Source of the DNA: a virus
Lineage: Duplodnaviria; Heunggongvirae; Uroviricota; Caudoviricetes
Direction: 5' to 3' (one strand)
Virus record (IMG/VR): IMGVR_UViG_3300015184_000033
Length of the DNA stretch: 45,562 bases
Every line of letters starts with the position of its first letter. Within the stretch, counting starts at the first letter, position 1. The notes under the pieces were generated by a model that ran no database searches, was not told where the DNA came from, and saw only the letters and a list, made by a program, of their open reading frames with translations. Positions 19,805 through 43,290 of this stretch are shown here, one piece after another. The translations under genes were made by a program, and so were the position numbers.

Positions 19805-20361
19805 TTTTTAACCGCCATAACACAACAGGTTAAAGAAAACTGTTTAACTTATTGATACTAAAAGAGAAAAATGACGATCTTTTTACTCATAAAAAATCAC
19901 ACAAACCAGCATAATTATCTGATTTTATTAAGTTTTTATAAGTAAAAAGGATCTTGCGATGGTGTTTTGGTTAAAAGATTGGATGTATTTGCATGATTTA
20001 TAACGATTTTTATCAGAACAACATCACATTGGTTAAAGATCTGCGCGTATCTTGATGATCTAAAAGAAAATTTTCTACTTTCTTTTTACCAGCACAAATA
20101 CAGCAAAAAATCACGTTTTCCCGATATTTTTCAATGAGATGAGTAAATTTCTTTTACCGCAACTTTTAACCTAACTTTTTTCACGTTTAGCTAGCCGAAC
20201 ATCGGGGTTCGAATGACCCGCATCCAACGCTTTTGGCCAGAAGGACCCAATTCTGCCGGACGATGAAACGATGCTCGTGCTCCCCCACAGACAGCCAGCG
20301 AGCGACGCTACAGAACACAGTGAATACACTCTGCATAACAACACCATCAACCACACGATGA
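19805..20361. promoter_or_regulatory. AT-rich, ORF-poor region upstream of the packaging operon (candidate late promoter and/or cos region)
   Basis: About 550 bp with only weak overlapping ORFs; lies upstream of ParB-TerS-TerL; no cohesive-end site can be identified by eye. Confidence 0.3.
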
Positions 20362-21081
20362 TTAACGAGAGAAGGTCTTAGAAAGAATGTCATCAATAGC
20401 CTTTGTGACTTCATCAGCAAACGCATCCTCACCAGCACGCAGCGCCACGCCATGCCAATCAAGACGCTGCGAATAGTTAGGTTGCTGGATAAACGTAAGG
20501 ATCAACGTAGGACGCCGCCCAACGCGCTGCCAGACGCCTGGTTGAAGCGGGTTACTTGTACCAGGTCGAACAACAAAAAACTCCGTAGGCTTGCCCTGAC
20601 GGCGATTTTGATGCGCATCTCGCTGAACTCTTAGGCCAGATAAGACCTGCTGTAATTGCCCCCGCGAAATATTCCCATATTTGTCCAGCTTTGCGCCGGG
20701 ACCAGGAGCAAGCTGCCAGCCGTTAGGCAAATATCCACCAGCCCTTAGCGCCCCTTCTGAGCGTTTGTACTGTCGTTGGCCACCTTCGATTTGCGGGGTC
20801 AACGTTACAGGGGCTGGCGTTCCTCCCCATTCACGAGCATACACAATGGCTGTAGGATCGCTCTTCTTTGCGGCCAAAACGTAAGTAGAGTTCTGAATCC
20901 ACGGCGTGGGCCTGTCAAATACCCGATTAATTTCATTCTTAATCGCAGCCTGAGAAGCCTTTGCCGTTCTGGTTGCCGCAAGCGCCATTGCGAACGGCAA
21001 TTCGCGTTCTTCAAGGCGCTGGAGTTGTCGTTGAATATCCTGAGAAGAAAAATCCATCTTTATCTCAATTCTGTCAGCCAC
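20362..21081 (-). CDS. Hypothetical protein
   Basis: 239-aa ORF downstream of ParB-methyltransferase gene; no recognised motif. Confidence 0.5.
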   Translation of the reverse strand: MADRIEIKMDFSSQDIQRQLQRLEERELPFAMALAATRTAKASQAAIKNEINRVFDRPTPWIQNSTYVLAAKKSDPTAIVYAREWGGTPAPVTLTPQIEGGQRQYKRSEGALRAGGYLPNGWQLAPGPGAKLDKYGNISRGQLQQVLSGLRVQRDAHQNRRQGKPTEFFVVRPGTSNPLQPGVWQRVGRRPTLILTFIQQPNYSQRLDWHGVALRAGEDAFADEVTKAIDDILSKTFSR

Positions 21082-21097
21082 CAGCGCCTCCTACAGA

Positions 21098-22477
21098 CTA
21101 CTTAATCAACGGCCGGAAAGCCGCCAGCACATCATCAGATCGTCCGATTGTTGAACCACCAGGCAACGGCAACTCAAACTCAAAACGAACAGCTTTCTCC
21201 AGACTCGCCCAACTAAGGGAATCATCGTTAATGACGTGCAAATACCAGCTCTTACAGTTGAATATTGACCGCTTAATCCTGAAACCATGTACACGGCACA
21301 ACTGCTTCACTTCATCATCAGAGTGAAACTTCTGGTAAAACCAGTGCCCCTTCCGGTACAACGCGGTAAAACCGTTATGATCAATAAAATAAAGCCGGCT
21401 TTTGGAACTCGCCGCTTGTGTTTGCTTCAGGACTGTTTCCAGCTCTCCACGGCTACGACCAGAAAAGAATATTGACCCACCAGCTTTACACAGGCCTTTC
21501 AGAACCGTCAGAACGGACCATTCAGCCTCGACACTATCGACCGAGTTCAAAACGCTATCGCAAATCACGTAGTCGTAACGCCCTCGCGTTTTTAAGTCGT
21601 CCACCAGCGTATCAATCATCCGGTTTGTTGCGGTCCTATCCAGAGTGTTTCCAGCGCCCTTACGGCGAAAAAGCTCGAGATCATGCAGGTTATATCCCTT
21701 TGCCCTGAGCATTCGCGCGTAGTCTCCCTGCCCCGAACCAAAATCAATTCCTCTTGGCGTCTTGGCAATGATCGGGAGGATCAACGACTCATACAGATTT
21801 GATTTCAGGCTGCCACCATTACGCAACCGCATAAGCTGCGCATACGTCTGGATATATGTTGTTTTCTCCAGATGAGAATACTCAAATACACCATAAGTTT
21901 TATTCAGATAACTTTGGTATTTTTCCTTCTCAACATCAGGGATCACAAACACCGTTAGCGGTGTGCGCGTCATTTTCGCTGCTAATGCATACTGAGCACA
22001 GTGAATAACCTCACCAGACTGAGTAGCAACACAACCACCCCACGGACCATACTTGATAACCAGTTCCGCTATGTTCTTTCGAACATATGCCATTTTCGCG
22101 CGCATATTGCCTGAGATCTGGCTTGCCGATACCTGAACAAAACCATGCTTATCTTCCAGACCGGACACCCTGCAACGCTCATCTCCGCTATCAAAATCCG
22201 TTCCGTTATGCAGTTGGTTAAACCGTACTTCATCGTATACCGTCGTTTCACAGGGCAACACATACACCGCAGCACGCGTTATTCCCAACTTACGTAGCGC
22301 CTTCGTCCTTTGGTGTCCCGCCACCAGCAAATCGCCGCGCACTATCAATGGCTTCACAAGCCCCAGCTCCCTGACGCTTTCCGCCAGCCTCGCAAGATCA
22401 TCCTCACCGATAAAACGCGGGTTATATTCCGCGCCGCGTAGGTGCGTTATGTCGTAATTCAGGTGAAGCATCAGCAC
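21098..22477 (-). CDS. ParB-N domain fused to SAM-dependent methyltransferase (putative DNA methyltransferase)
   Basis: 459-aa ORF; N-terminal ParB-like segment (KPLIVRGDLLVAGHQRTKALRKLG) and C-terminal motif-I-like IDFGSGQGDY. Confidence 0.6.
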   Translation of the reverse strand: MLMLHLNYDITHLRGAEYNPRFIGEDDLARLAESVRELGLVKPLIVRGDLLVAGHQRTKALRKLGITRAAVYVLPCETTVYDEVRFNQLHNGTDFDSGDERCRVSGLEDKHGFVQVSASQISGNMRAKMAYVRKNIAELVIKYGPWGGCVATQSGEVIHCAQYALAAKMTRTPLTVFVIPDVEKEKYQSYLNKTYGVFEYSHLEKTTYIQTYAQLMRLRNGGSLKSNLYESLILPIIAKTPRGIDFGSGQGDYARMLRAKGYNLHDLELFRRKGAGNTLDRTATNRMIDTLVDDLKTRGRYDYVICDSVLNSVDSVEAEWSVLTVLKGLCKAGGSIFFSGRSRGELETVLKQTQAASSKSRLYFIDHNGFTALYRKGHWFYQKFHSDDEVKQLCRVHGFRIKRSIFNCKSWYLHVINDDSLSWASLEKAVRFEFELPLPGGSTIGRSDDVLAAFRPLIK

Positions 22478-23094
22478 ACCTCCCCAGCCAGCAATGCGGA
22501 TACAAATCCGATATAGCTGCCATTATCATCAACATAACGAGACACCGCGCAGTCAAAACGATCCGCTTCCTCATCCGTTGCCGGGATTTTATGACCTCCA
22601 AATGACAGGTACTGAACTTTTACGCCTGATTTGGCCTCATCCTTCTCAAATGGGATATCCATACCCTCTGTGTCATCGTAGACCGCCGCACTCAATAAGT
22701 TATCCAGTTCGCGCTGAGTAAAACCAATTGAGTCCAGAGCAAAATCATCGGCCGCAAGATCTGCAAGCTCCGCGCTTAACAACTCTTCATCCCAACCAGC
22801 ATTCAGCGGAATACGGTTGTCGGCCAGACGATATGCCTTCTTCTGATTCTCCGTTAGCCCTTCCAGAACAATGCAGGGAACCTCATCCATCCCCAACTGA
22901 GTGGCCGCAGCAATTCGACCATGACCAGCAATTACAACGTTGTTCTCGTCTATCAGGATCGGATTAGTCCATCCGTACTCCTGTATGCTGGCAACAATCT
23001 GATCTACCTGCTCCACGGAGTGTGTGCGAGCGTTCTTTTCATAACCAATCAACACAGAAAGTGGTAAAGAAACCACATTAAGATGTTTTGTCAT
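22471..23094 (-). CDS. ParB-like nuclease domain protein (paralogue of 19214-19804)
   Basis: 207-aa ORF; NPILIDENNVVIAGHGRIAAA and NQKKAYRLADN closely parallel the other ParB-like protein. Confidence 0.75.
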   Translation of the reverse strand: MTKHLNVVSLPLSVLIGYEKNARTHSVEQVDQIVASIQEYGWTNPILIDENNVVIAGHGRIAAATQLGMDEVPCIVLEGLTENQKKAYRLADNRIPLNAGWDEELLSAELADLAADDFALDSIGFTQRELDNLLSAAVYDDTEGMDIPFEKDEAKSGVKVQYLSFGGHKIPATDEEADRFDCAVSRYVDDNGSYIGFVSALLAGEVC

Positions 23095-24876: not shown

Positions 24877-25142
24877 TCATCATCTCCTGCCGCACATACA
24901 ACCTCACAAAAAACATCAGCGGAATGTTTCTTTTTGAATGAATGGCGCTCAAAACCGCACTCAATATCAGGCGCAAAAACATCCACCACATACGGTCTTT
25001 CAGAATGTTTGTTTTCCCAACGATAAACCGTAGTGACGTTGAAATGTTTTAACGCTTCACGGAACTCAACGCTGCCCGTCAGGTTTTTTGAGGTCAGGTA
25101 TTGCAGGAGTTTTTTTACTACTTCACGGTCTTGTACTTTCAT
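24873..25142 (-). CDS. Hypothetical protein, first gene after promoter/leader cassette copy 1
   Basis: 89-aa ORF; ATG preceded by conserved GGAGATAACCCG leader. Confidence 0.5.
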   Translation of the reverse strand: MKVQDREVVKKLLQYLTSKNLTGSVEFREALKHFNVTTVYRWENKHSERPYVVDVFAPDIECGFERHSFKKKHSADVFCEVVCAAGDDE

Positions 25143-25256
25143 CGGGTTATCTCCGGTTTAACCAGGGCGGGTATCGCTCGGTTTCGGGTATAACCATAGG
25201 AAATTTTTTCCCACCTGTAAAGCACTTTTTATATAAATATATAATTATATAATTCT
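25143..25256 (-). promoter_or_regulatory. Conserved promoter/leader cassette, copy 1
   Basis: About 105 bp almost identical to 32094-32200 and 41478-41587; candidate -35 TTTACA, 17-bp spacer, -10 TATGGT, conserved 5' leader and SD GGAGA. Confidence 0.55.
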
Positions 25257-25842
25257 ATGACACTTGCCAGAGAGCATCATGCAACTGGATACCTCCGTTG
25301 CACTGGTTGCCCCAGCCATGCCAGCCATCAGGTAAATCACCGCGAGCAAACAGCTCAATACGAGGAACATCGCCTAACAGCTTTACCAGCTTGTCACGGA
25401 CCACATCAGGCTTCCGAGAATGCTCCAGACGAGGCGATGTAAACGACTGAATGATCCCCGCATCAAGACGTGTCGGTAGTTTGCCTTTCACTGCAAACAA
25501 GCAATCTTCACTGTTTGCACGAGTCATATGCCCCATCCCCATCACCAGCTTATCTGGTTGTCGGCTACCACATTTGTTCCATGTGAAGCCCTTCATGGTC
25601 ATCAGCCTGAATCCCCATGCTTTCACCACCAGCAACGCTTCTTCTGGCTGAGTCGGAACCCACCACATGGCCAACAAACACGATTCAGGATTAGCAAGCT
25701 GCCAGACAGGAATACGAGCAATATCCTCAGCTTTCATCGTTGGATACTTAAAACCAGCGCCACGATTCCCATCCTTACACTTGTCTTTGTATTCCCAGGG
25801 GGGATCTGCATAAATCAGATTAAACAATGCAATTGCCTCCAT
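25255..25842 (-). CDS. MT-A70 family N6-adenine DNA methyltransferase
   Basis: 195-aa ORF with diagnostic DPPW motif (IYADPPWEYK). Confidence 0.8.
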   Translation of the reverse strand: MEAIALFNLIYADPPWEYKDKCKDGNRGAGFKYPTMKAEDIARIPVWQLANPESCLLAMWWVPTQPEEALLVVKAWGFRLMTMKGFTWNKCGSRQPDKLVMGMGHMTRANSEDCLFAVKGKLPTRLDAGIIQSFTSPRLEHSRKPDVVRDKLVKLLGDVPRIELFARGDLPDGWHGWGNQCNGGIQLHDALWQVS

Positions 25843-26150: not shown

Positions 26151-26226
26151 TGGTGGCCCCTACCGGATTTGAACCGATGACCGTGCGATTATGAGTCGCC
26201 TGCTCTAACCACTGAGCTAAGGGGCC
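26151..26226 (-). tRNA. tRNA with CAU anticodon (tRNA-Ile2/lysidine type more likely than tRNA-Met), CCA encoded
   Basis: Hand-folded cloverleaf: acceptor GGCCCCU/AGGGGCC, D-arm GCUC-AGUGGUUA-GAGC, anticodon loop CUCAUAA, T-arm AUCGG-UUCAAAU-CCGGU; 5' half matches remembered enterobacterial ileX. Confidence 0.8.
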
Positions 26227-26310: not shown

Positions 26311-26395
26311 AGACAAACATGGTTGATGCGTGCGCCCATGAGAAAAGCGCATAGAATGTTGTAACTATATATTTATATAATTATAGAAATATATA

Positions 26396-26605
26396 TTACT
26401 TTGGACAGTTGATTTCCCATGCCCTGTTATGAGCCAGAATATCTTTCTTTGTCTGGCGGTCCATAACATCGATGTCGTGATCAGTCAGGTAGATGGGCTT
26501 TACCCAATCACAGGCGGTATCAACCACCACCGGGACGCTTCCACGACTCCCGCAGCTCGCGATCAACATCGTCATCAGCCATATGGTTAACACTCTGCTG
26601 TACAT
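26396..26605 (-). CDS. o-spanin-like outer-membrane lipoprotein (Rz1-like)
   Basis: 69-aa ORF with signal peptide and lipobox LIASC; start embedded in the 3' end of the i-spanin-like gene in another frame. Confidence 0.55.
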   Translation of the reverse strand: MYSRVLTIWLMTMLIASCGSRGSVPVVVDTACDWVKPIYLTDHDIDVMDRQTKKDILAHNRAWEINCPK

Positions 26606-30300: not shown

Positions 30301-30666
30301 TCACTTCAACTCCTCCCGACGACGTTCCTGAAGCTCTAGCATTGCGGCTCGGAAATCCTGCCACCATTCCTCATCTGCAACGGGGGTGTTCCGCTCCAGC
30401 ACCTTGTCCGCATCGGCGATCAGGTTTGCCAGACTCTTGTCTGAAATCTTCGTTACCGGAGTCGTTGGTTGCTCAACCTGCCCGATAGGTTTTATCGTGC
30501 TCAAAAGGAGGCGACGGCGGGAAAGTGGTGCCCCACAACGACGGCCATCTTCCTTGCGATATGTTTCTTTCGGACCAACACACCAGGTTGTCGGCGTTTC
30601 GCGCAACTTCACTCTTTTCTCGCCATCATTGGTAATGATTATTCCGGTATGGGTTTTGATGCTCAT
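30301..30666 (-). CDS. Hypothetical protein
   Basis: 121-aa ORF; no recognised motif. Confidence 0.45.
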   Translation of the reverse strand: MSIKTHTGIIITNDGEKRVKLRETPTTWCVGPKETYRKEDGRRCGAPLSRRRLLLSTIKPIGQVEQPTTPVTKISDKSLANLIADADKVLERNTPVADEEWWQDFRAAMLELQERRREELK

Positions 30667-30965
30667 GCCACAGCCCCTCTCAACGGCTTAACTTTGGCTA
30701 ATAAGGTGTTAAACAACATGGAGTTAGGATTCATGCCAAATGGCAATTCCGGTTTAGCGGAGTAGTACAGGCAACCATTTATTTTCCTGGTTGTTATCTG
30801 TCCTTCGGCAACCATGCTTCTCAGTCTGCAACGCATAGAGTTCTGCGACACACCAATGTGCTCCGCGATTACGTCCACTTTTGAACATGGGTGATCGGTC
30901 AGGAAATTAATCACATCTTGGGGGTTAATAATTTTGCGTTTCATTGTCGAGGCGTCCTTATACAT
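30663..30965 (-). CDS. Winged-helix regulator, FaeA/PapI-like; true start may be Met8 (30944)
   Basis: Pattern KIINPQDVINFLTDHP...VDVIAEHIGVSQNSMRCRLRSMVAEGQI resembles FaeA-like wHTH proteins; annotated start overlaps the AT-rich motif. Confidence 0.45.
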   Translation of the reverse strand: MYKDASTMKRKIINPQDVINFLTDHPCSKVDVIAEHIGVSQNSMRCRLRSMVAEGQITTRKINGCLYYSAKPELPFGMNPNSMLFNTLLAKVKPLRGAVA

Positions 30966-31021
30966 TTATATAAATATATAATTCTATATACGGCGGGAGA
31001 CATCCCGCCGTAGGCTTACTG

Positions 31022-32089
31022 TCAGGCTTTCAATAGCGATTCTTTCAGATATCGGGCATCAGCCAGGGCGTTTGGAGTAATCTTGCGAACCCATGCATTA
31101 CGGGTTGGACTCCACTTAAAGGCGCGTGATTTAAGCAGCGAACGAATGTTTGCCTCTGGTTTGCCAGGGAAATAAAACAGGATGCGGTTATCCTCTGGAT
31201 CTATCTCCATAGAAAAGCCGTCGTATTCTTCGCACTGTGCTCCTGTTACAGACTTGACCGATTCAAGCTCCTTAATACGGCTCTGTAGTCGTTTGATTTC
31301 GGCCTTATTGTTGCTCAGTGCGTATGAAGGGAATCCGATGTGCCCACAGAAATCTCCGGACAGTAACTCTTTGGCTTCGCTTTCTGTAAACCTGAGATCG
31401 ATTAATGCAGAAAGCTGCTGTAATTGGTCTTTTTTGTATTTGCGAATGGCCTTATTTGCGGCCTTCATTTTGACGTGTGACTTCATGCAGCCTTGCAGCT
31501 TACGAAGCAACTTAAATAGCGCATCAGGATCATCAGACGAAATTCCATTACGACCAACACCTGCGGCTTTGCTCTCGTAGTGTGATGCTCTACTTTCGCA
31601 TTCAACAAACGCTTTTCTGAATAACGCATCAGCTTTAGACAAACGGCGGCGATGGCCTTTCGCGCTATAATGGTCAACTAAAATCGGCTGGCCTAACGGG
31701 ATCACATCCAACAGGTCATGCGCTCGCTTATGCGCTACCGCACCTTCTTTTCTGGCTTTTTCTGCACGAGCAATATATCGGGCAAGACGCGCGTTCTGGC
31801 GTTCCTGATAGGTGTTTACGTAATCATCTCCGCGCTGCTGCTGTTCAAGCCATGCTTTACGAAGATCTTCTGTTACGTCCACCAGCTCCGCAGGGATACA
31901 ACCAGTTTGGGCTTCATAAGAGTAACCATCCTCATAGATACGCCCATCGTCTTCAACAAAGAAAAAGGTTTCGTGCTCATCGCTTTTGACCATACGACCA
32001 TTAACATGGCGTAATAGGTAGCCAGTATCAGTGCTTAACAGGCTGTTAGGGTTGTTGATCCAGTCAGAAATAATTACTTGTTTATTCAT
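31022..32089 (-). CDS. DUF3560-like protein (function unknown), first gene after cassette copy 2
   Basis: 355-aa ORF; C-terminal LLKSRAFKWSPTRNAWVRK recalled as DUF3560-type; ATG preceded by conserved leader. Confidence 0.45.
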   Translation of the reverse strand: MNKQVIISDWINNPNSLLSTDTGYLLRHVNGRMVKSDEHETFFFVEDDGRIYEDGYSYEAQTGCIPAELVDVTEDLRKAWLEQQQRGDDYVNTYQERQNARLARYIARAEKARKEGAVAHKRAHDLLDVIPLGQPILVDHYSAKGHRRRLSKADALFRKAFVECESRASHYESKAAGVGRNGISSDDPDALFKLLRKLQGCMKSHVKMKAANKAIRKYKKDQLQQLSALIDLRFTESEAKELLSGDFCGHIGFPSYALSNNKAEIKRLQSRIKELESVKSVTGAQCEEYDGFSMEIDPEDNRILFYFPGKPEANIRSLLKSRAFKWSPTRNAWVRKITPNALADARYLKESLLKA

Positions 32090-32215
32090 CAGATTTCTCC
32101 GGTTTAACCAGGGCGGGTATCGCTCGGTTTCGGGTATAACCTTAGGAAATTTTTTCCCACCTGTAAAGCACTTTTTATATAAATCTATAATTATATATTT
32201 ATAGATTTTCGATGT
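32090..32215 (-). promoter_or_regulatory. Conserved promoter/leader cassette, copy 2
   Basis: Identical to copy 3 from tctccggtttaacc through ttatataaatctataattatata; candidate -35 TTTACA and -10 TAAGGT; immediately downstream of Q-like gene. Confidence 0.55.
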
Positions 32216-34609: not shown

Positions 34610-34628
34610 TTAACGAACTCCAGTTAAA

Positions 34629-34746
34629 ACCACGATATGTGGTATTAAAACCACATATCGTGAGTTTTTCAATGGGCGAAACAAAAAATAACCTTCTATT
34701 TGTGGTCCACCTCTCGTCTTACCATGTGAAAACCACTAAATGTGGT
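34629..34746. promoter_or_regulatory. Operator cluster between divergent Cro-like and cI-like genes (ACCAC-N5-GTGGT sites)
   Basis: ACCACGATATGTGGT at 34629-34643, ACCACATATCGTGAG at 34650-34664, ACCACTAAATGTGGT at 34732-34746, plus GTGGTCCAC at about 34702. Confidence 0.6.
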
Positions 34747-34783
34747 AATGTATAAAGAACCCACCATTCACGATTGATGAGAC

Positions 34784-35440
34784 ATGAAAAGCAACGACGA
34801 GAACATCAAGAAAGAAATAGGTCTGCGCATTCAGACTCTACGGAAACAATCCGGCATGACTGCCGGAGATCTCCAGCAAGTCACTGGAATAGGCTTAAGC
34901 ACCTTGCAGAACTATGAGGCCGGATTAAGACAACCATCTATACCTGCCATCAAGAAAATCGCGCACGCCCTGAAAGCATCAGCGCCTTATATCGCGTGCT
35001 TAACAGATAACCCGTTCCCACCCCAGAATACTAACGCTCCTGTTATTCCTGGGCTTGTAGCTATAAAAAATGACATAGCATCGCACGCCGGAGAAAAGCC
35101 AGTGCTGGCGATAGAACAGGAGATTCTACGAAGCAAGAACATCAACCCATCGTCTCTGTCAGTTCTCCAGAGCAACGATGAGTTAATGTCACCAACAATA
35201 TCCCCTGGCTCCCAAGTCCTGATTAATACAGACGATACAGAGATTCATGAGGGGATCTATGCCCTTGAAGACAGAAATGGCCTGGTTGTTTTGAGGCACT
35301 GTAGAGTCATACCGGGTGACAATGCTGTTATGCTGTCAACCGAAAGGGATGCTGAAATGAACACTAAGCATCTGAATAACGAGGAATTTAAGCGTTATAA
35401 AGTTCTTGGCCGCGTAGTTAGTGTTGTCAACTGGTTATGA
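34784..35440 (+). CDS. cI-like repressor (HTH_XRE plus LexA-type S24 autopeptidase domain)
   Basis: 218-aa ORF; N-terminal HTH (LRKQSGMTAGDLQQVTGIGLSTLQNYEAG), C-terminal domain with MSPTISPG serine motif and a downstream Lys. Confidence 0.8.
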   Translation: MKSNDENIKKEIGLRIQTLRKQSGMTAGDLQQVTGIGLSTLQNYEAGLRQPSIPAIKKIAHALKASAPYIACLTDNPFPPQNTNAPVIPGLVAIKNDIASHAGEKPVLAIEQEILRSKNINPSSLSVLQSNDELMSPTISPGSQVLINTDDTEIHEGIYALEDRNGLVVLRHCRVIPGDNAVMLSTERDAEMNTKHLNNEEFKRYKVLGRVVSVVNWL

Positions 35441-35911: not shown

Positions 35912-35931
35912 AAGCGGGCTAACGCCCGCTT
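35912..35931 (+). terminator. Putative terminator hairpin
   Basis: AAGCGGGC-TAAC-GCCCGCTT followed by A/T-rich tract. Confidence 0.45.
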
Positions 35932-36036
35932 ATATGATTATAGATTTATATAATTATATAAAACGCTTTTCATCCGCCAAAAAGTTGGTTATGCTTACCT
36001 CGTTCTATAAATATAGATTTATAGAATTATATAACC
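35929..36036. repeat. Two copies of the AT-rich ATAGATTTATATAA-type motif upstream of parF (candidate centromere/operator)
   Basis: gattatagatttatataattatataaaa (35929-35966) and ctataaatatagatttatagaattatataa (36003-36036); third copy at 36709-36743. Confidence 0.5.
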
Positions 36037-36057
36037 AAACACATGGAGTCTCGACAA

Positions 36058-36711
36058 ATGACTATCTCTGTAGGTATTTTCAACGGAAAAGGCGGCGTAA
36101 CCAAATCAACAATTGCCCGTGCTTTAGCAGTTGCTTATGCAAAGGCCGGCTGGAATGTATGCCTGATCGATATGGATGTGCTTAACGGAACGGTAACGCG
36201 TTGGGTACAACGCAGAATGGCCAACAATATCGAACCAGCAATCGCGGCACAGCCGTGCGGCACACCATCACAAGTCCAGAAAATCATCGAATCAGAAGTA
36301 TACGACCTGGTTATCGTAGATGGCGGTGCCTACGCATCTGAATCAGTACCGAAGCTCTCTGAATTTCTGGATATGGTTATTTTGCCAACCAGATTCTCTA
36401 CCGATGACCTGGAAACCACCGTTAACACAGCTCACGGCATCGTTAAAAAGGGTGTACCAATCAAGAAAATTTGCATGGTGTTTTCCGGCGCGGCTGAAAA
36501 CGAAGCTGACTATATTGAAGCCCAAGAGTACCTGGCTAATACGCCATACTTTGTTGTCGATAAGTACATTCCCCACAAGCCAGCTCTGAGCAAAGCTCAG
36601 GATAAGGGCTTAAGCCTCATTGAGTGCTCATACGTTGCGCCACGCAAAAAGGCAGACGACGTTATTCAGGGGATTATCAACCAGCTTGAGGCTCTGACTA
36701 CTGCCGCGTAA
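36058..36711 (+). CDS. ParA/ParF-type partition ATPase
   Basis: Deviant Walker A GKGGVTKST near N-terminus; start placed at ATG 36058 with GGAG 9 nt upstream; about 217 aa as for small type-Ib ParA. Confidence 0.85.
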   Translation: MTISVGIFNGKGGVTKSTIARALAVAYAKAGWNVCLIDMDVLNGTVTRWVQRRMANNIEPAIAAQPCGTPSQVQKIIESEVYDLVIVDGGAYASESVPKLSEFLDMVILPTRFSTDDLETTVNTAHGIVKKGVPIKKICMVFSGAAENEADYIEAQEYLANTPYFVVDKYIPHKPALSKAQDKGLSLIECSYVAPRKKADDVIQGIINQLEALTTAA

Positions 36712-36754
36712 TATATAATTATAGTTTTATAGATTTATATAAGAGGGGATACAC

Positions 36755-37003
36755 ATGGCCGCACCATCAAAACCACCAAAGAAGAACAGCAAAGGCGTAC
36801 CGCCATCGATCGAACAACCGCAAGTTTTCGACCCGACTGAAACGCCAGCCAGAACCAAATCAGGTGGGGCACAAATGGCGTTTAACGTCGACCCTGAATT
36901 TAAACGCGAGTACAAAACGTTCGCCAGCTCAATGGATATGTCATTGAAAGAAGTGCTGACAAAATCTTTTGAGTTACTCAAGGCTCAATACAACCAGAAG
37001 TAA
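36755..37003 (+). CDS. ParG-like ribbon-helix-helix partition/centromere-binding protein
   Basis: 82-aa ORF directly after ParA; C-terminus AFNVDPEFKREYKTFASSMDMSLKEVLTKSFELLK parallels remembered ParG RHH region. Confidence 0.6.
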   Translation: MAAPSKPPKKNSKGVPPSIEQPQVFDPTETPARTKSGGAQMAFNVDPEFKREYKTFASSMDMSLKEVLTKSFELLKAQYNQK

Positions 37004-37215: not shown

Positions 37216-37230
37216 ATTCAACCATAAAAA

Positions 37231-37248
37231 AGGCCCCCGAAGGGGCCT
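37231..37248 (-). terminator. Intrinsic terminator hairpin
   Basis: AGGCCCC-CGAA-GGGGCCT; on the minus strand followed by TTTTTATGG. Confidence 0.55.
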
Positions 37249-37253
37249 AATCG

Positions 37254-37376
37254 CTACTTGCTGCTAATGTTTATCGTCACATTCAGAGCGTTATCAGTAA
37301 TCTTCCAACCCTCCCCATGTGGCGTAAACAAAGCTCCAGTAACAACGATAAAAATACACATACAGTATTTTTTCAT
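37254..37376 (-). CDS. Small hydrophobic peptide (40 aa), candidate type-I toxin
   Basis: MKKYCMCIFIVVTGALFTPHGEGW...; SD-like AAGGG 5 nt upstream of ATG 37376; terminator immediately downstream. Confidence 0.35.
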   Translation of the reverse strand: MKKYCMCIFIVVTGALFTPHGEGWKITDNALNVTINISSK

Positions 37377-37440
37377 TGTGTGGCCCTTACAGGCCGTTTC
37401 ACGGCATCCCCACCGACGAAAATGACGCGAGAGCAAGCAC

Positions 37441-37460
37441 GCTGTTTGTGCCTGCGTGGT
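37441..37460. repeat. 20-bp direct repeat, copy 1 (GCTGTTTGTGCCTGCGTGGT)
   Basis: Matches 37691-37710 at 19 of 20 positions; lies 65 nt upstream of the small peptide ATG. Confidence 0.85.
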
Positions 37461-37690
37461 ACGGCAAGTGGATAATCCTTTCCTGAAAGTCAGTGCCCGG
37501 GTGCGAATCGGCGGAAAGGCCCCAAGCCATATTACACGTCATACCCTTCATAATGAAGGAATAAAAAACGCTTTTATTACATAAGATTACACGTAAATAA
37601 GTTAAAAACCTTCATTTTGCATGAGCTAATGAGCTAAATTTTTTTATATGAATAGTGGACTATTCACCTCAGTTGGGTAAGAATGTAGTT

Positions 37691-37768: not shown

Positions 37769-37793
37769 CCGTCCTCAAAAGGACGGTTTTTTT
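37769..37793 (+). terminator. Intrinsic terminator (bidirectional hairpin)
   Basis: CCGTCCT-CAAAA-AGGACGG followed by TTTTTTT on plus strand; also overlaps the stop codon of the minus-strand HTH gene. Confidence 0.5.
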
Positions 37794-38347
37794 GTTTCTC
37801 CCCCTTCCTTCCCAAATGATTCAAATGTTAATGAGAGAGAATCATTTGATATGTTCGATTTAGCGCCGTTATCGACCCAATTTCTGTATGCTTCATCACA
37901 ACAGTACCTTACAGCAGTTGGAATAACAGGAGAGCCGCCCAGAAATGAAAATCCCATTGAGCTTATGCTAATTCTTTCGAATGGCCTATTTCTCAATGCT
38001 TCAAATCCCTTGCTGTTGAAGTAACTCAGCATCAGAGGTAAAAGGTTATCCTCATCTTGACTGATTGTTCCCGGGAAAAAGTAGTAACCATGGCGATTAA
38101 ATTCGGGAATCAGTTTTTCTACCAACAACATGAAATTCATTGGGGTAATATTAAGGGCAGAGCAAGCACCAAAAAGAGCATCAACCGTTAATACAGACTG
38201 TCCGTTCTCTATCTTTGTCCATGCGTTTGGTGTTTTTCCAGCAGCTTGAGCCAGCACTCCTTGATGCACACCTCTTTCTAGCCTAAGTTCTTTTATGATC
38301 ATTAGGTGGATTGTTGAAAAACATGAGTTTTTTGACGTTTCAGTCAT
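37775..38347 (-). CDS. XRE-family HTH regulator (second repressor-like protein)
   Basis: Start placed at ATG 38347 (GGGGA upstream); HTH segment IKELRLERGVHQGVLAQAAGKTPNAWTKIENGQ. Confidence 0.55.
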   Translation of the reverse strand: MTETSKNSCFSTIHLMIIKELRLERGVHQGVLAQAAGKTPNAWTKIENGQSVLTVDALFGACSALNITPMNFMLLVEKLIPEFNRHGYYFFPGTISQDEDNLLPLMLSYFNSKGFEALRNRPFERISISSMGFSFLGGSPVIPTAVRYCCDEAYRNWVDNGAKSNISNDSLSLTFESFGKEGGETKKPSF

Positions 38348-38485
38348 TTTTTTATCCCCATATTGAATTTTTTCCTTGTTCCCAACTTTAACAAAACACC
38401 ACAACCCAGGATTGAGTCATTCCTTACAGGAACTATACATTCCCGTCTTTGGTATATCAAGAAAATTAAAAGCTCGGCATTCAAA

Positions 38486-38500: not shown

Positions 38501-38612
38501 TTAGTCTGTTAAAATCCGCCGTATTGACATGAATGCGCCATTGGTGGACACTTTCCGAGCCGTAGCAAAATCTACGGTCGGGATTGGAACCCCGATAATC
38601 ATCATGGCGCAT

Positions 38613-38635
38613 ACCGCGTTAGCGGTTTTTTTATG
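38613..38635 (+). terminator. Attenuator-like hairpin with T-run in the antirepressor leader
   Basis: ACCGC-GTTA-GCGGT followed by TTTTTTTAT; outer arms GCGCATA/TATGCG allow an alternative pairing. Confidence 0.4.
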
Positions 38636-38797
38636 CGTAAAGCACTGCTACACCCAAATTATGGTGGGGCGTGCGGGGGAGTCGTTAGACTCGCCGGATT
38701 CCATGGTGACCGGTAGTTCCAACCCTGTACGTCTCACCACCCAATGATTGGAACCAGACGGTGGTGAGTATCCTTAACCTTTAAGGGAACTATCACC

Positions 38798-38989
38798 ATG
38801 ACAAACTTACCCCATGACTATTACGTCAACCTCGTAAAGATCCTTCTCAAGAAAGCCTCATACGCCGATAAATTACGCCTGGCTGAAATCATCGAGCGCG
38901 AAGCTATGCGCATCGCCAGCAACGATAACGCTGTTTCTGACGCAAAAATCTCCCTCGTAACCAAAGTAGTTATGGGAGGTGCAAAATGA
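38798..38989 (+). CDS. Small protein preceding antirepressor (Icd-like position)
   Basis: 63-aa ORF with SD AAGGGAA; stop overlaps the antirepressor ATG (ATGA). Confidence 0.45.
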   Translation: MTNLPHDYYVNLVKILLKKASYADKLRLAEIIEREAMRIASNDNAVSDAKISLVTKVVMGGAK

Positions 38990-40155
38990 AAACGCTTCCG
39001 ACCGTTAACACCCTACAGCCTATCCTGCATAACCAGATCCCCGTTATCACTACTGAACTTTTGGCGCAGTTTTACGGCACCGAGATCAACAATATCAAAG
39101 TCAATTACACCCGTAATGCTGAAAGGTTTGTTGAGGGAAAACACTTTTTCAAAGTTGGTGGCGATGCCCTGAAAAATTTGCGGGTTACTTTAAGTAACTC
39201 ACAAAATTTGCAACCATCTTTAAGAGGGTTACAAATTTCCCCGAAAGCCCGCTCCCTCATTCTCTGGACAGAACGCGGGGCTGCACGTCACGCTAAAATG
39301 CTCGAAACCGATCAGGCGTGGGATGTATTCGAACGGCTGGAAGACTGCTATTTCAACCAGAACGCGCAAACGGCCGCGACCGTAACCGTCTCGCCAAACA
39401 ATGCTCGTGAGGTTGTCGATACGCTCAACGCCAAACCGATGTTTTACATTAAGGTGTGCAATAACGAGCCACTCACAACCTCAGCCGATGTTGCCCAGGC
39501 ATTCAGCACCACAAACAATTCCATCGTTATGGCCATCGATGCGTTACGCATTCCTCGCACAGCTGCGGCGCGTCATTTCTTTAAAGAGCAACGACCGTTG
39601 GAAGGAAGCGACCGCGAAATAACAATCTATCGCATGACAAAAGACGGATTTACCTTGCTCATGGAAAGTATCGACGGTCCAGGCGTGAAGGATATCAAGC
39701 TGGCCTACATTGAAGCCTTTAACGCTATCAGCAGCGTGTTAAAAACACAGTACGAGCGCGATCTGGCTAAACGACTGTACCAGGAAAAAACGATTATCCG
39801 CGCGGCAACAGAGCATAATCGGCTATTAACGGAACCGAACTACAGGAAGGAACTAATCAAGGAGTTTGACAAGGCAACAGGGAAAACCAAAGCGGCGCTA
39901 AATCTGCCAGCAATGACTCAGGAAAATGTGATATCAGCCTTACTTCTTGATCTGCTCAGAAACGCCAGAGCACTGATCAGCTTTGACGAAAACCTGAATC
40001 CTCAGCTCAAGCTACTACCACCGACAGGCAAAGTAGTCGACCAGGCAGATCACAACAGCATACTCAGCGTACTGGATGCAAACCTGCCAGCCAGGACACT
40101 ACAGGAGCTGATAAAAACATGTGCTGATAAGCTCGCACAGAAAAGCAGACCATAA
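38986..40155 (+). CDS. Antirepressor (AntA-like N-terminal domain)
   Basis: 389-aa ORF; N-terminus HNQIPVITTELLAQFYGTEINNIKVNYTRNAERFVEGKHFFKV matches the phage antirepressor N-terminal signature. Confidence 0.8.
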   Translation: MKTLPTVNTLQPILHNQIPVITTELLAQFYGTEINNIKVNYTRNAERFVEGKHFFKVGGDALKNLRVTLSNSQNLQPSLRGLQISPKARSLILWTERGAARHAKMLETDQAWDVFERLEDCYFNQNAQTAATVTVSPNNAREVVDTLNAKPMFYIKVCNNEPLTTSADVAQAFSTTNNSIVMAIDALRIPRTAAARHFFKEQRPLEGSDREITIYRMTKDGFTLLMESIDGPGVKDIKLAYIEAFNAISSVLKTQYERDLAKRLYQEKTIIRAATEHNRLLTEPNYRKELIKEFDKATGKTKAALNLPAMTQENVISALLLDLLRNARALISFDENLNPQLKLLPPTGKVVDQADHNSILSVLDANLPARTLQELIKTCADKLAQKSRP

Positions 40156-41096: not shown

Positions 41097-41477
41097 TTAC
41101 TTAACGAGGAATAAAAATGGTTTATTGTTCGGCGGTGTAATCGGGGCTGGCTCGCTTTTGCTCATGCGATCAGTGTACCAGGCCAACTCCTTGTCAAAGT
41201 AAGCCTGATTAAAATAGGCCATGAATGTAGTTTCAAATCCATAACGACCGCTAATACGCAGCATCTGATTGCCGTTCTCTGTTTCCAGATATACCTGGGC
41301 ACGTTCCTGATTCTCCTTCAGCCAGGTTAAAGCCTCATCGCATGAGGACACACGATACTCATCATCGTAGCAGTCATCGATGCGGCTTGAGGAAGAACGG
41401 CAAATCACGCCAACAGAACCAGCCAGGATAGTTTGAATTTTAAGGAAAGCGTTTTTGCGGATTTTAATCATGCTCAT
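41097..41477 (-). CDS. Hypothetical protein, first gene after cassette copy 3
   Basis: 126-aa ORF; ATG preceded by conserved GGAGATAACCCG leader. Confidence 0.5.
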   Translation of the reverse strand: MSMIKIRKNAFLKIQTILAGSVGVICRSSSSRIDDCYDDEYRVSSCDEALTWLKENQERAQVYLETENGNQMLRISGRYGFETTFMAYFNQAYFDKELAWYTDRMSKSEPAPITPPNNKPFLFLVK

Positions 41478-41590
41478 CGGGTTATCTCCGGTTTAACCAG
41501 GGCGGGTATCGCTCGGTTTCGGGTATAACCTTAGGAAATTTTTTCCCACCTGTAAAGCACTTTTTATATAAATCTATAATTATATAAGCA
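41478..41590 (-). promoter_or_regulatory. Conserved promoter/leader cassette, copy 3
   Basis: Near-identical to copies at 25143-25256 and 32090-32215. Confidence 0.55.
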
Positions 41591-41591
41591 C

Positions 41592-41617
41592 AAAAAAGCC
41601 CCTTTGCAACAGGGGCT
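41592..41617 (-). terminator. Intrinsic terminator after the HigA-like gene
   Basis: Hairpin AGCCCCT-GTTGCAA-AGGGGCT on minus strand followed by TTTTTT. Confidence 0.55.
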
Positions 41618-41632
41618 TATCATTCGTTCTGA

Positions 41633-42523: not shown

Positions 42524-42814
42524 CTATTTTTGTGACTTTACTCCTGGCATATGGACTTCCCAGCGACGAATCCCCATAGCTGCGCAAAAATCAGCCACAT
42601 AATTCAATCCCGCCCATTCGCGGATACCACCACGGGCTTTTTCAATGAAAACGGCAATCCCTTTTTTATTGAGAGCAAAAAGCCGCCAGCTTTTTGTCAC
42701 TTCGTCCTGGGTAGCCACAACACAAGTGAAAGCTCCCATGCGATACAGGTCCAAGAACTCTTTGCGTGTTTTGCGTACAAGTTCCATAACAAACCTCATA
42801 TTTGCATGTTTCAA
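42524..42814 (-). CDS. Hypothetical protein
   Basis: 96-aa ORF translationally coupled to upstream small gene. Confidence 0.4.
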   Translation of the reverse strand: MKHANMRFVMELVRKTRKEFLDLYRMGAFTCVVATQDEVTKSWRLFALNKKGIAVFIEKARGGIREWAGLNYVADFCAAMGIRRWEVHMPGVKSQK

Positions 42815-43110
42815 ACATCTGTTTTGTTATCAATGAAGATTAACCCTAACCCAGCGAAGTAACACAGCAGCGCCCAGGCTGCATACGGAATGCTGGATCT
42901 GGATGTGGACTCCTTTAACATCTGCCAGTTGCGAACATTGCGACTATCTTTTAAGCCTAGTTTTTTTGCCAACTGCGAGCCACTCATTCCGGTCAGGCCA
43001 ATGACTGCCCGAACTTCTCCACATGTAGGAGATTCCCATTCATCCGCTTTTTTTAAACAAGCCGGATTCAACATTTTTAAAACAGTATCTTTATCCATAA
43101 CCATCTCCAT
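42811..43110 (-). CDS. Hypothetical protein with HTH-like segment
   Basis: 99-aa ORF; segment GMSGSQLAKKLGLKDSRNVRNWQ. Confidence 0.4.
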   Translation of the reverse strand: MEMVMDKDTVLKMLNPACLKKADEWESPTCGEVRAVIGLTGMSGSQLAKKLGLKDSRNVRNWQMLKESTSRSSIPYAAWALLCYFAGLGLIFIDNKTDV

Positions 43111-43290
43111 TTATTATATCTACGATGGTAGGAAATCTTTTCCTATGTGGCAATAGAAATTTACTACATTGCGTATAAGACAAGTTTTCTATGTCTAATA
43201 GGAAATGATGTTTCTTACGTTTTATCGCGTTCTGATGGCTACTGTGTGCGTATTTATCGAAGTTTATCGATAAGGCTCGCCCCTTCCTCC

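What the first reader, a model, noticed from the sequence alone, without database searches (positions are those of the whole stretch)
32090..32215. Three near-identical ~100-bp promoter/leader cassettes placed in front of unrelated genes
Copies at 25143-25256, 32090-32215 and 41478-41590 share about 98-100% identity over about 100 bp. Each ends at the ATG of a different minus-strand gene (89-aa hypothetical, DUF3560-like, 126-aa hypothetical). Each carries an upstream AT-rich 14-mer, a candidate -35 TTTACA and -10 TAAGGT/TATGGT, and a conserved roughly 45-nt leader ending in SD GGAGA. The leader has GGUUAU ... AUAACC complementarity that could occlude the SD. Copy 2 sits directly downstream of the Q-like gene, so the cassette could be a Q-utilisation-type late promoter present in triplicate, or a mobile promoter module driving early or anti-defence genes.
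Basis: seen in the sequence. Interest (0 to 1): 0.75.

Follow-up and report, generated by a model that had tools for sequence, protein, structure and literature searches.

The report
Triplicated regulated promoter-leader cassette, phage-plasmid
Three near-identical 110-bp units in this E. coli phage-plasmid are real promoter-plus-leader modules that combine repeats matching the plasmid's partition locus, an operator-like palindrome matched to an anti-CRISPR-associated-type repressor, and a conserved RNA hairpin, so a set of small accessory genes is probably switched on and off together.

Summary
In detail: three copies, 98-100% identical over 102-110 bp, each end at the ATG of a different minus-strand gene. 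The window is a nearly complete ~48-kb E. coli phage-plasmid. Each cassette has four parts.

- The "AT-rich 14-mer" is part of an array of three to four 8-bp units (TATAnAnn). Such arrays occur at exactly 8 sites, three of them at the parA/82-aa-protein partition locus.
- A sigma-70 promoter (TTTACA-17-TAAGGT) is conserved in position across four diverged clades.
- A 17-bp palindrome fills the promoter spacer. It recurs at a fourth promoter in front of a 95-99-aa HTH protein homologous to the AcrIF24 Aca domain.
- A 5'-proximal RNA hairpin has compensatory changes in 4 of 7 pairs.

Repeat sequence differs between clades. In each genome it matches that genome's own par locus.

Best reading: an Aca-type (DNA palindrome plus 5'-UTR hairpin) control module for accessory, possibly anti-defence, genes, additionally wired to a ParG/omega-like partition protein and homogenised by gene conversion. 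This is a new variant of a known kind. The transcription start, protein binding and cargo function are inferred, not shown.

The parts
32087..32205 (-). Cassette copy 2 (the finding), from the first 8-bp unit to the ATG of DUF3560 gene 31022-32089
32174..32205 (-). Copy 2 iteron array, 4 x 8 bp: TCTATAAA TATATAAT TATAGATT TATATAAA
32162..32167 (-). Copy 2 -35 hexamer TTTACA
   Evidence: position conserved across clades
32143..32159 (-). Copy 2 17-bp palindrome TGGGAAAAAATTTCCTA in the spacer, overlapping the first two bases of the -10. Candidate operator of the Aca-like HTH protein.
32139..32144 (-). Copy 2 -10 hexamer TAAGGT. Predicted start near 32131-32132.
   Evidence: Start site inferred, not measured.
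32106..32129 (-). Copy 2 5'-UTR hairpin AACCG-A-GCG-AUACC-CGC-CC-UGGUU
32096..32100 (-). Copy 2 Shine-Dalgarno GGAGA. ATG at 32087-32089.
25140..25259 (-). Cassette copy 1: array 25228-25259, -35 25216-25221, palindrome 25197-25213, -10 TATGGT 25193-25198, hairpin 25160-25183, SD 25150-25154, ATG 25140-25142 of the 89-aa ORF
41475..41594 (-). Cassette copy 3: array 41563-41586 (3 units, the 4th replaced by the terminator tail), -35 41551-41556, palindrome 41532-41548, -10 41528-41533, hairpin 41495-41518, SD 41485-41489, ATG 41475-41477 of the 126-aa ORF. An upstream terminator-like hairpin lies at 41596-41618.
43125..43153 (-). Fourth promoter P4: TTGCCA-17-TACCAT with the same palindrome (TAGGAAAAGATTTCCTA, 43129-43145), but no iterons and no hairpin
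42811..43110 (-). Aca-like HTH protein gene (95-99 aa; RefSeq start 43098), candidate binder of the palindrome
35931..36035 (+). parA control region: iteron array A 35931-35962, promoter-like TTTTCA-17-TATGCT (my reading of the sequence; the promoter scan did not list it), iteron array B 36004-36035
36058..36711 (+). Small Walker-type ParA (217 aa)
36712..36743 (+). Iteron array between parA and the 82-aa gene
36755..37003 (+). 82-aa candidate centromere-binding protein: disordered N-tail plus a predicted strand-helix-helix (ParG-like architecture)
26358..26400 (-). Iteron array without a cassette, upstream of tRNA-Met 26151-26226
30957..30988 (-). Iteron array without a cassette, directly in front of the start of wHTH gene 30663-30965

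Best explanation
Each cassette is a self-contained control module with four stacked elements. (1) An array of 8-bp repeats is bound by the plasmid's small partition protein, the 82-aa ORF after ParA, in the manner of ParG on parH/OF or omega on its heptads. (2) A sigma-70 promoter follows. (3) A 17-bp palindrome covers the spacer and the start of the -10, and is bound by the 95-99-aa Aca-type HTH protein made from promoter P4, which carries the same palindrome. (4) A short hairpin forms about 3 nt from the 5' end of the mRNA, followed by a strong SD. Proposed working: on entry into a cell that has neither protein, the three promoters fire and express small accessory genes, possibly anti-defence or establishment genes. 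As the Aca-like repressor and the partition protein accumulate, the promoters are shut down. By analogy with Aca1 and Aca2, the hairpin may also be bound to block translation. The arrays may double as extra centromeres. The copies are kept alike by gene conversion. Shown here: the repeats, their distribution, conservation and covariation, and the homologies. Inferred: the start site, all protein-nucleic acid contacts, repression, and cargo function.
For: Arrays: TATAnAnn arrays of at least 3 units occur at 8 loci only, where a Markov model expects 0.005-0.19. Three of the 8 are at the par locus.

Repeat type differs between clades and matches the par locus of the same genome: TATAnAnn (E. coli/Salmonella), TTAAAnnn (Serratia L025/L026), GATATAnn (IMG/VR clade 3) and AAAGAnTT (L046). 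ParA-39% relatives also have dispersed arrays of their own type (CTATAAAG, TAACGCAT). An unrelated conjugative plasmid with homologous parA plus a 77-aa protein has the same arrays.

The 82-aa protein has a disordered tail plus two helices, and its family weakly hits RHH Pfam models.

Promoter: -35/17/-10 is kept in all clades.

Palindrome: TAGGA-N7-TCCTA is present in every cassette and in P4 in Salmonella, both Serratia plasmids and L046. Arm changes are symmetric: TAGGAC/GTCCTA vs TAGGTC/GACCTA.

P4 protein: homologs occur in every clade. A family profile hits the AcrIF24 HTH domain at E 7.4e-8 and Aca3 at 3.4e-3. Foldseek top hits are AcrIF24, Aca1 and Aca2 (model pLDDT 83). In clade 3 the gene sits behind a cargo gene in a cassette-driven operon, the classical acr-aca layout.

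Hairpin: 98.9% of cells are paired. Four of 7 pairs have double changes, with G-U intermediates, 0/500 shuffles reach the score, and slid controls pair in 4-49% of cells. The same fold is the MFE in all six representative leaders folded, from four clades.

Precedent: acr-aca1 regions have a DNA IR in the promoter and a two-part hairpin directly after the start site, and Aca proteins control several operons (PMC13551039).

Constraint: cassettes are 88-90% identical between E. coli and Salmonella, whereas flanking genes are 52-80% identical.

Gene conversion: both -10 alleles occur at all three positions, and the copy-2 spacer occurs at position 1.
Against: No transcription start, binding or expression data exist. 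The start site is placed only by hexamer position.

The E. coli hexamers are mediocre (TTTACA, TAAGGT).

The 82-aa protein has no significant match to ParG, omega or any solved RHH, so its fold rests on weak hits.

Covariation of repeats with the clade cannot by itself separate the 82-aa protein from other diverging proteins.

The covariation count was made on an alignment fitted to the model, with perhaps only 4-6 independent events. E. coli-type leaders score only about 20 bits against the model, and their inner stem aligns one position off.

Hairpin loops vary within a genome, which argues against loop-specific recognition.

Hairpin and palindrome share no consistent sequence, unlike Aca2.

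Cargo proteins match nothing known, so 'anti-defence' is guilt by association.

Some arrays sit where no promoter fits.
Confidence: 0.55

Rival explanations
1. The arrays are primarily dispersed centromeres for plasmid partition, as in N15, where centromere copies are scattered through the genome. Their position next to promoters is secondary, and the partition protein does not control the cassette genes.
For: Arrays of about four contiguous units also lie where no promoter fits. pSM19035 has six parS arrays, and at least 4 contiguous repeats are needed to activate ParA (PMC9499535). Arrays are dispersed in all relatives.
Against: In every clade the array ends about 5-7 bp upstream of the -35 in all cassettes and in the parA promoter. 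This fixed register suggests promoter control. Known RHH partition proteins (ParG, omega) repress through the same repeats. The two roles are not exclusive.
Confidence: 0.15
2. The cassettes are constitutive strong-expression units. The hairpin is only a 5'-terminal mRNA stabiliser (ompA type), the AT-rich array acts as an UP element, and the palindrome has no dedicated binder.
For: The hairpin starts about 3 nt from the predicted 5' end. Its loops vary within genomes. The arrays occupy the usual UP-element position.
Against: An UP element would not change sequence in step with the par-locus repeats of each genome. The palindrome is kept, with symmetric arm changes, across clades, and recurs at the promoter of an Aca-type HTH gene that lacks array and hairpin.
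Confidence: 0.15
3. The repeated units are recombination substrates that shuffle small gene cassettes (integron-like or homologous-recombination hot spots). The regulatory look is incidental.
For: In clade 3, unit-plus-small-gene modules are arranged in tandem every 0.4-1 kb, and cargo differs between genomes. Gene-conversion tracts are visible.
Against: No integrase or attC-like feature is associated. The conserved positions are exactly those of a promoter (T-A-n-n-n-T, 17-bp spacing), an SD and an RNA helix with G-U pairs.
Confidence: 0.07
4. One reading: a Q-utilisation-type late promoter in triplicate, acted on by the upstream 'Q-like' gene. Alternatively, an SD-occluding leader hairpin GGUUAU/AUAACC.
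For: Copy 2 lies 40 bp downstream of the 125-aa gene. A palindrome between -35 and -10 recalls the lambda QBE position (own knowledge).
Against: The 125-aa protein has no Q or antiterminator match (PHROG 5285 unknown). In the tblastn of selected window proteins, only the Aca-like P4 protein, the 82-aa protein and the cI-like repressor had homologs in every cassette-bearing clade; the 125-aa protein itself was not among the queries. The cassettes precede small accessory genes, not the lysis/structural block. The GGUUAU/AUAACC pairing is absent in copy 2 and in all relatives.
Confidence: 0.03

Closest known systems
acr-aca operon 5' regions controlled by Aca1/Aca2 (DNA inverted repeat in the promoter plus RNA hairpin in the 5' UTR; multi-operon control), PMC13551039, and the Aca domain of AcrIF24, PMC9638941
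   Same: An HTH regulator homologous to the AcrIF24 HTH domain. A palindrome overlaps the promoter core. A two-part hairpin (lower stem, 1-2 unpaired bases, 3-bp upper stem with covariation) lies directly after the predicted start and ends about 16-17 nt before the ATG. The same motif occurs at several operons. In clade 3 the regulator gene follows a small cargo gene in the same operon.
   Different: In the window the regulator has its own promoter, 1.6-18 kb from the three targets. The targets are dispersed over 16 kb. The hairpin is absent from the regulator's own promoter. No known acr gene is among the cargo. An extra upstream layer of partition-type repeats is present. Binding was not tested.
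omega (ParB) of pSM19035/inc18: RHH protein binding arrays of 7-bp heptads that serve as parS and as operators of copS, delta and omega promoters (PMC9499535)
   Same: A small protein encoded after a small ParA. Contiguous short repeats occur in direct and inverted orientation, in arrays of about four or more units, at several promoters including the par operon's own.
   Different: 8-bp units rather than 7-bp. Arrays lie upstream of the -35 rather than over the promoter. Targets are phage-plasmid accessory genes. No detectable sequence homology.
ParF/ParG with parH and the OF operator of TP228 (PMC3130281)
   Same: 8-bp periodicity (a 4-bp box plus a 4-bp spacer). Boxes occur in either orientation. 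The protein has a flexible N-terminal tail plus a C-terminal strand-helix-helix. It autoregulates the par operon.
   Different: ParG sites are confined to the par locus, whereas here five of the eight arrays lie elsewhere in the genome. Only 1 of 44 family members weakly hits Pfam ParG.
Dispersed centromeres of phage-plasmid N15 (SopB sites) and the KorB regulon of RK2 (own knowledge, not checked here)
   Same: Partition-protein sites are scattered over a plasmid or phage-plasmid genome next to promoters, linking partition and gene control.
   Different: Those are type Ia HTH ParB proteins with 16-bp palindromic sites. Here it is a type Ib system with short tandem repeats.

Membership tests
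Aca-controlled anti-defence operon (acr-aca type) | Aca-family DNA-binding regulator encoded at the locus | tested here: met
   A profile of the P4 protein family hits the AcrIF24 HTH domain at E 7.4e-8 and Aca3 at 3.4e-3. Foldseek top hits are AcrIF24, Aca1 and Aca2.
Aca-controlled anti-defence operon (acr-aca type) | Inverted repeat overlapping the promoter core of the regulated operon and of the regulator's own operon | tested here: met
   A 17-bp palindrome lies in the spacer/-10 of all three cassettes and of P4, and is conserved in five clades.
Aca-controlled anti-defence operon (acr-aca type) | Regulator binds the repeat and represses transcription | not testable with these tools
   Needs EMSA or a reporter assay.
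Aca-controlled anti-defence operon (acr-aca type) | Structured RNA motif directly downstream of the start site with covariation (Aca1/Aca2 subtype) | tested here: met
   The start site itself is only predicted.
Aca-controlled anti-defence operon (acr-aca type) | Regulated genes are anti-CRISPR or other anti-defence genes | tested here: inconclusive
   Cargo proteins match no known family except DUF3560 and DUF1391.
Aca-controlled anti-defence operon (acr-aca type) | Regulator gene lies in the same operon as the regulated genes | tested here: not met
   In the window it has its own promoter P4. The feature is met in IMG/VR clade 3.
Type Ib partition system with RHH centromere-binding protein (ParF/ParG, delta/omega) | Small Walker ParA without an N-terminal DNA-binding domain, followed by a small protein gene | tested here: met
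   A 217-aa ParA (Pfam CbiA/ParA/MipZ) is followed by the 82-aa ORF.
Type Ib partition system with RHH centromere-binding protein (ParF/ParG, delta/omega) | Ribbon-helix-helix fold of the small protein | tested here: inconclusive
   The AF2 monomer has a disordered residue range 1-40 and helices at 47-59 and 62-81. Fifteen of 44 family members weakly hit RHH_10 and 11 hit Antitox_RHH. There is no PDB match by sequence or fold.
Type Ib partition system with RHH centromere-binding protein (ParF/ParG, delta/omega) | Arrays of short repeats at the par promoter, specific to the cognate protein | tested here: met
   Arrays flank the parA promoter in every clade, and repeat sequence differs by clade along with the protein.
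Type Ib partition system with RHH centromere-binding protein (ParF/ParG, delta/omega) | Sequence homology to ParG or omega | tested here: not met
   No Pfam ParG hit for the window protein. One of 44 relatives hits at E 0.018. The PDB profile search finds neither.
Type Ib partition system with RHH centromere-binding protein (ParF/ParG, delta/omega) | Centromere activity and ParA ATPase stimulation | not testable with these tools
   Needs plasmid stability and ATPase assays.
Lambda-type Q antitermination at a late promoter | Q-family protein encoded upstream | tested here: not met
   The 125-aa protein has no Pfam hit and belongs to PHROG 5285, unknown function.
Lambda-type Q antitermination at a late promoter | Single late promoter ahead of the lysis and structural genes | tested here: not met
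   Three to four or more copies precede small accessory genes.
Any curated RNA family (Rfam 15) | Match at gathering score within the cassette | tested here: not met
   The only hits in the window are C4, isrK, ryfA and a tRNA, all elsewhere.
5'-terminal stabilising stem-loop (ompA type) | Stem-loop within a few nucleotides of the mRNA 5' end | tested here: inconclusive
   The hairpin starts about 3 nt after the position 7 nt downstream of the -10 in all clades. The 5' end was not measured.

The most novel reading that the evidence does not exclude
In a widespread family of enterobacterial phage-plasmids, the partition centromere-binding protein doubles as a genome-wide regulator. Together with an Aca-type HTH protein that may read both a DNA palindrome and an mRNA hairpin, it gates a dispersed regulon of unknown small genes that are new anti-defence or establishment functions. 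The repeat arrays would make expression sensitive to entry into a naive cell and to copy number, through titration of the protein during lytic replication.
Probability: 0.35. Interest if true: 0.8.

Novelty: new variant of a known kind. Interest (0 to 1): 0.62.

Why it matters
Phage-plasmids must run a plasmid programme and a phage programme from one genome. Here the same 8-bp repeats mark the partition operon and a set of accessory-gene promoters. Those promoters also carry the hallmarks of Aca-type anti-defence control. That would be a direct wiring between plasmid maintenance and (anti-)defence or establishment gene expression.

Practically, the cassette is a searchable flag. The covariance model plus the palindrome picked out two to four unannotated small genes per genome in four clades. 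It therefore gives a guilt-by-association handle for finding new anti-defence proteins in Enterobacterales.

The element is present in 74 of 5426 complete E. coli genomes, including the reference strain ATCC 25922, so it can be tested easily.

Tried and rejected
C4 antisense RNA as regulator of the leaders: the C4 loops pair with its own icd-like start region (UCACCAUG, UUGGAAC), and I saw no matching sequence in the cassette by eye; no duplex computation was run.

cI/LexA-like repressor as binder: its operators (ACCACA...TGTGGT at 34610-34783) are absent from the cassettes.

RepA iterons: no arrays lie near repA.

Q/qut: see the rival explanations.

SD-occluding GGUUAU/AUAACC pairing: not conserved.

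A weak CGG/CCG pairing over the SD appears in some MFE folds but is absent in clade 3.

Sequence similarity between the DNA palindrome and the RNA stem (the Aca2 model): seen only in clade 3 (GGAC-N5-GUC) and not in other clades, so not claimed.

Fold search with the 82-aa monomer model gave nothing. PDB profile searches for that family were also empty.

Pfam, NCBIfam, PHROG and PDB searches of cargo proteins gave no function.

A literature search on DUF3560 returned five papers, none with the term in title or abstract; none was read.

ParA relatives at about 46% identity in Pectobacterium, Erwinia and Pantoea carry no palindrome or cassette.

Full report
**What the window is.**
The 45.5-kb window is almost the whole genome of a ~48-kb circular phage-plasmid. 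It is 99% identical to an unnamed plasmid of E. coli ATCC 25922 and to about 60 other E. coli plasmids, and to three Yersinia phages, vB_YpM_39/41/44. It carries contractile-tail (myovirus-type) structural genes, RepA, a small ParA, a cI/LexA-like repressor and a P1 immI-like C4/antirepressor locus. The cassette is found in 74 of 5426 complete E. coli genomes. The median is three copies per genome, and 214 of 217 places are on plasmids.

- The three copies lie on the minus strand at 25140-25259, 32087-32205 and 41475-41594. Copies 2 and 3 are 100% identical to each other over the 102 nt that all three share, and copy 1 is 98% identical to copy 3 over 110 nt.
- Each ends at the ATG of a different gene: an 89-aa ORF, a DUF3560 protein, and a 126-aa ORF.
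- A 31-nt core has three matches against none expected in shuffles.

**Anatomy, part 1: the AT-rich stretch is an iteron array.**
- The "14-mer" is part of an array of three to four contiguous 8-bp units, TATA(T/G)A(A/T)N, in direct or inverted orientation.
- Arrays of at least three units occur at exactly eight loci, where a second-order Markov model expects 0.005-0.19.
- The eight loci are:
  - the three cassettes;
  - two sites flanking the parA promoter (35931-35962 and 36004-36035);
  - one between parA and the following 82-aa ORF (36712-36743);
  - one upstream of tRNA-Met (26358-26400);
  - one directly in front of a wHTH gene (30957-30988).
- The parA promoter has the same layout as the cassette: array, 4-6 bp, then CTTT(T/A)CA.

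**Anatomy, part 2: who binds the arrays.**
- The 82-aa protein has a disordered, Lys/Pro-rich N-terminal half. This is followed by a conserved LNFKV segment and two helices.
- That is the architecture of ParG. In TP228, ParG reads ACTC boxes separated by 4-bp AT spacers, which gives an 8-bp period, in either orientation, at both the centromere and the operator (PMC3130281).
- Family members weakly hit RHH Pfam models: 15 of 44 hit RHH_10, 11 hit Antitox_RHH and 1 hits ParG. There is no significant match to ParG, omega or any solved structure. I therefore call it ParG-like in design, not a ParG homolog.
- The strongest argument is comparative. Relatives with diverged ParA and small protein use different 8-bp units. 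In each genome the units at the par locus and at the dispersed sites are the same:
  - TATAnAnn in E. coli and Salmonella;
  - TTAAAnnn in two Serratia phage-plasmids;
  - GATATAnn in an IMG/VR clade and AAAGAnTT in L046;
  - CTATAAAG and TAACGCAT in relatives with only 39% ParA identity, which also have dispersed arrays.
- A 28-kb conjugative cfr plasmid with a homologous parA and a 77-aa protein has TATA-type arrays at its par locus. It also has a cassette cut off by IS26.
- pSM19035 omega offers the functional precedent. It has six heptad arrays that are both parS and promoter operators, and four contiguous repeats are the minimum for ParA activation (PMC9499535).

**Anatomy, part 3: the promoter.**
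- TTTACA-17-TAAGGT/TATGGT is only a fair sigma-70 match.
- The homologous positions in other clades read TTGCAG-17-TAATAT, TTGCGC-17-TATTAT, TTGAAG-17-TATGGT and TTGTCA-17-TACTAT. T-A-n-n-n-T of the -10 is invariant.

**Anatomy, part 4: a palindrome in the spacer and its likely binder.**
- The last 15 bp of the spacer plus the TA of the -10 form a 17-bp palindrome:
  - TGGGAAAAAATTTCCTA in the window;
  - TAGGAAAATATTTCCTA in Salmonella;
  - TAGGA-N7-TCCTA in Serratia;
  - TAGGACTAAAAGTCCTA in clade 3;
  - TAGGTCAAAAAGACCTA in L046, where the arm changes are symmetric.
- The same palindrome sits at the same place in a fourth promoter, P4 (43125-43153, TTGCCA-17-TACCAT). P4 has no iterons and no hairpin, and it precedes a 95-99-aa gene.
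- This arrangement recurs in Salmonella, both Serratia plasmids and L046.
- The P4 protein is one of only three regulator-like proteins of those I tested that are conserved in every cassette-bearing clade. The other two are the cI-like repressor and the 82-aa protein.
- Its family profile matches the HTH domain of AcrIF24 (E 7.4e-8) and Aca3 (E 3.4e-3).
- Its AF2 model (pLDDT 83) is most similar to AcrIF24, Aca1 and Aca2. AcrIF24 uses that domain to bind an inverted repeat in its own promoter and repress it (PMC9638941).
- In clade 3 the homolog lies behind a small cargo gene inside a cassette-driven operon, which is the classical acr-aca layout.

**Anatomy, part 5: the leader.**
GGUUAU would also lie upstream of the predicted start.
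- A different hairpin is conserved: AACCG-A-GCG-AUACC-CGC-CC-UGGUU at 32106-32129. The Serratia form is GGCC-G-GGC-AUACC-GCC-AA-GGCC, the clade 3 form is GGCC-G-GAC-ACAAC-GUC-AA-GGCC, and the L046 form is GACC-G-AGC-AAUCU-GCU-AA-GGUC.
- A covariance model built from two clades found 29 credible copies in the loci held, two to four per genome.
- On that alignment 98.9% of cells pair. Four of seven pairs show changes on both sides, with G-U intermediates. No shuffle out of 500 reaches the covariation score, and sliding the partner by one to three columns drops pairing to 4-49%.
- Caveats:
  - the alignment is fitted to the model;
  - copies within a genome are not independent, so I count roughly four to six separate events;
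  - the E. coli-type leaders score only about 20 bits, and their inner stem is offset by one position in a plain MAFFT alignment.
- Independent MFE folding of six leaders from four clades gives the same fold, at -9.6 to -15.6 kcal/mol.
- The hairpin begins about 3 nt after the position 7 nt downstream of the -10, and it ends 5 nt before the SD (16-17 nt before the ATG).

**How it compares with what is known.**
- A 2026 survey of Aca proteins (PMC13551039) describes the same design for acr-aca1 and acr-aca2 operons. There is a DNA inverted repeat in the promoter. A hairpin lies directly after the start site, with a conserved lower stem, one or two unpaired bases and a covarying 3-bp upper stem, and it is bound by the Aca protein. 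One Aca protein controls several neighbouring anti-defence operons. The survey also reports an RHH-type Aca.
- The cassette therefore works like an Aca-controlled 5' region.
- It differs in five ways:
  - the regulator here has its own promoter;
  - the targets are dispersed over 16 kb;
  - no known acr gene is among the cargo;
  - hairpin and palindrome share no consistent sequence;
  - every cassette carries an upstream array of partition-type repeats.
- A term search of that paper found no mention of partition or phage-plasmids.

**Evolution of the copies.**
- Within a genome the copies are 98-100% identical.
- Between E. coli and Salmonella they are 88-90% identical, and all three Salmonella copies share the same substitutions.
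- Flanking genes are only 52-80% identical.
- Among E. coli-type genomes both -10 alleles occur at all three positions, and the copy-2 spacer AATCTG is found in front of the copy-1 gene.
- Together this indicates purifying selection plus gene conversion among copies.

**Cargo.**
- Downstream genes are small and recur across clades:
  - the 126-aa MSxxxIRxNAF family;
  - a 103-aa MTxxEIANTILxQLGG family;
  - an 86-aa family;
  - DUF1391;
  - DUF3560.
- None has a known function. "Anti-defence" is an inference from the Aca-type control only.

**Verdict.**
- The feature is real, and it is a regulated promoter-leader module.
- The most likely mechanism is dual control by an Aca-type HTH repressor, acting at the palindrome and possibly the hairpin, and by the ParG/omega-like partition protein acting at the iteron array. 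This would give burst-then-shut-off expression of accessory genes.
- My confidence in the whole model is about 0.55. It is higher for the promoter, palindrome and hairpin being functional elements, and lower for the identity of the binders and the nature of the cargo.
- It is a new variant of a known kind.

Noticed in passing
window 38559-40155 (+): P1 immI-like module: isrK-like RNA (38559-38632), C4 antisense RNA (38657-38744), a 63-aa icd-like ORF (38798-38989) and an ORF6N antirepressor (38986-40155). The C4 loop CAUGGUGA is complementary to UCACCAUG across the ORF's start codon.
   Followed up: partly
window 37226-37524 (-): Strong Rfam match to ryfA RNA (131 bits), between the 82-aa partition-protein gene and the HTH regulator gene 37775-38404.
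   Followed up: no
window 26151-26226 (-) and 26358-26400: A tRNA-Met (CAT) gene with an 8-bp iteron array about 130 bp upstream and no cassette-type promoter.
   Followed up: partly
window 36045-36060 and 30962-30978; also parA starts in L025, L026, L044-L049: A second repeated module: an iteron array directly followed by GGAG(T/C)CTCGACAA(A)TG at the start codon. It is nearly invariant in front of parA in all clades although ParA is only about 54% identical. It is also present in front of the wHTH gene 30663-30965.
   Followed up: partly
L003 (NZ_CP037908) 4001-4047; also NZ_CP140467: 28-kb conjugative cfr plasmids share the RelE/HTH toxin-antitoxin pair and the first 47 bp of cassette 3, which IS26 cuts inside the promoter spacer. 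They carry a homologous parA plus a 77-aa protein with TATA-type arrays.
   Followed up: partly
window 34610-34783: The divergent control region of the cI/LexA-like repressor (34784-35440) has ACCACA...TGTGGT operators, including a perfect 13-bp-arm inverted repeat at 34631-34662. These are unrelated to the cassette motifs.
   Followed up: partly
window 417-809 and 6167-6451: Three 93-nt repeats (73-83% identity) and three 45-nt repeats at exact 120-nt spacing, lying inside large minus-strand ORFs of the tail-gene region (the second set within the 930-aa ORF 5716-8508). Probably repeated protein domains.
   Followed up: no
window 19214-23094 (-): Three ParB/Srx N-terminal-domain proteins in a row (19214-19804, 21098-22477, 22471-23094), just upstream of the terminase genes and downstream of cassette 1's operon.
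   Followed up: no
L025, L026 vs window: The same plasmid/early backbone (RepA, cI-like, ParA, small protein, Ref, DUF1064, cassettes) is joined to different virion modules: two different contractile-tail sets and a lambda-like siphovirus set in Serratia pJSRIV006_2.
   Followed up: no
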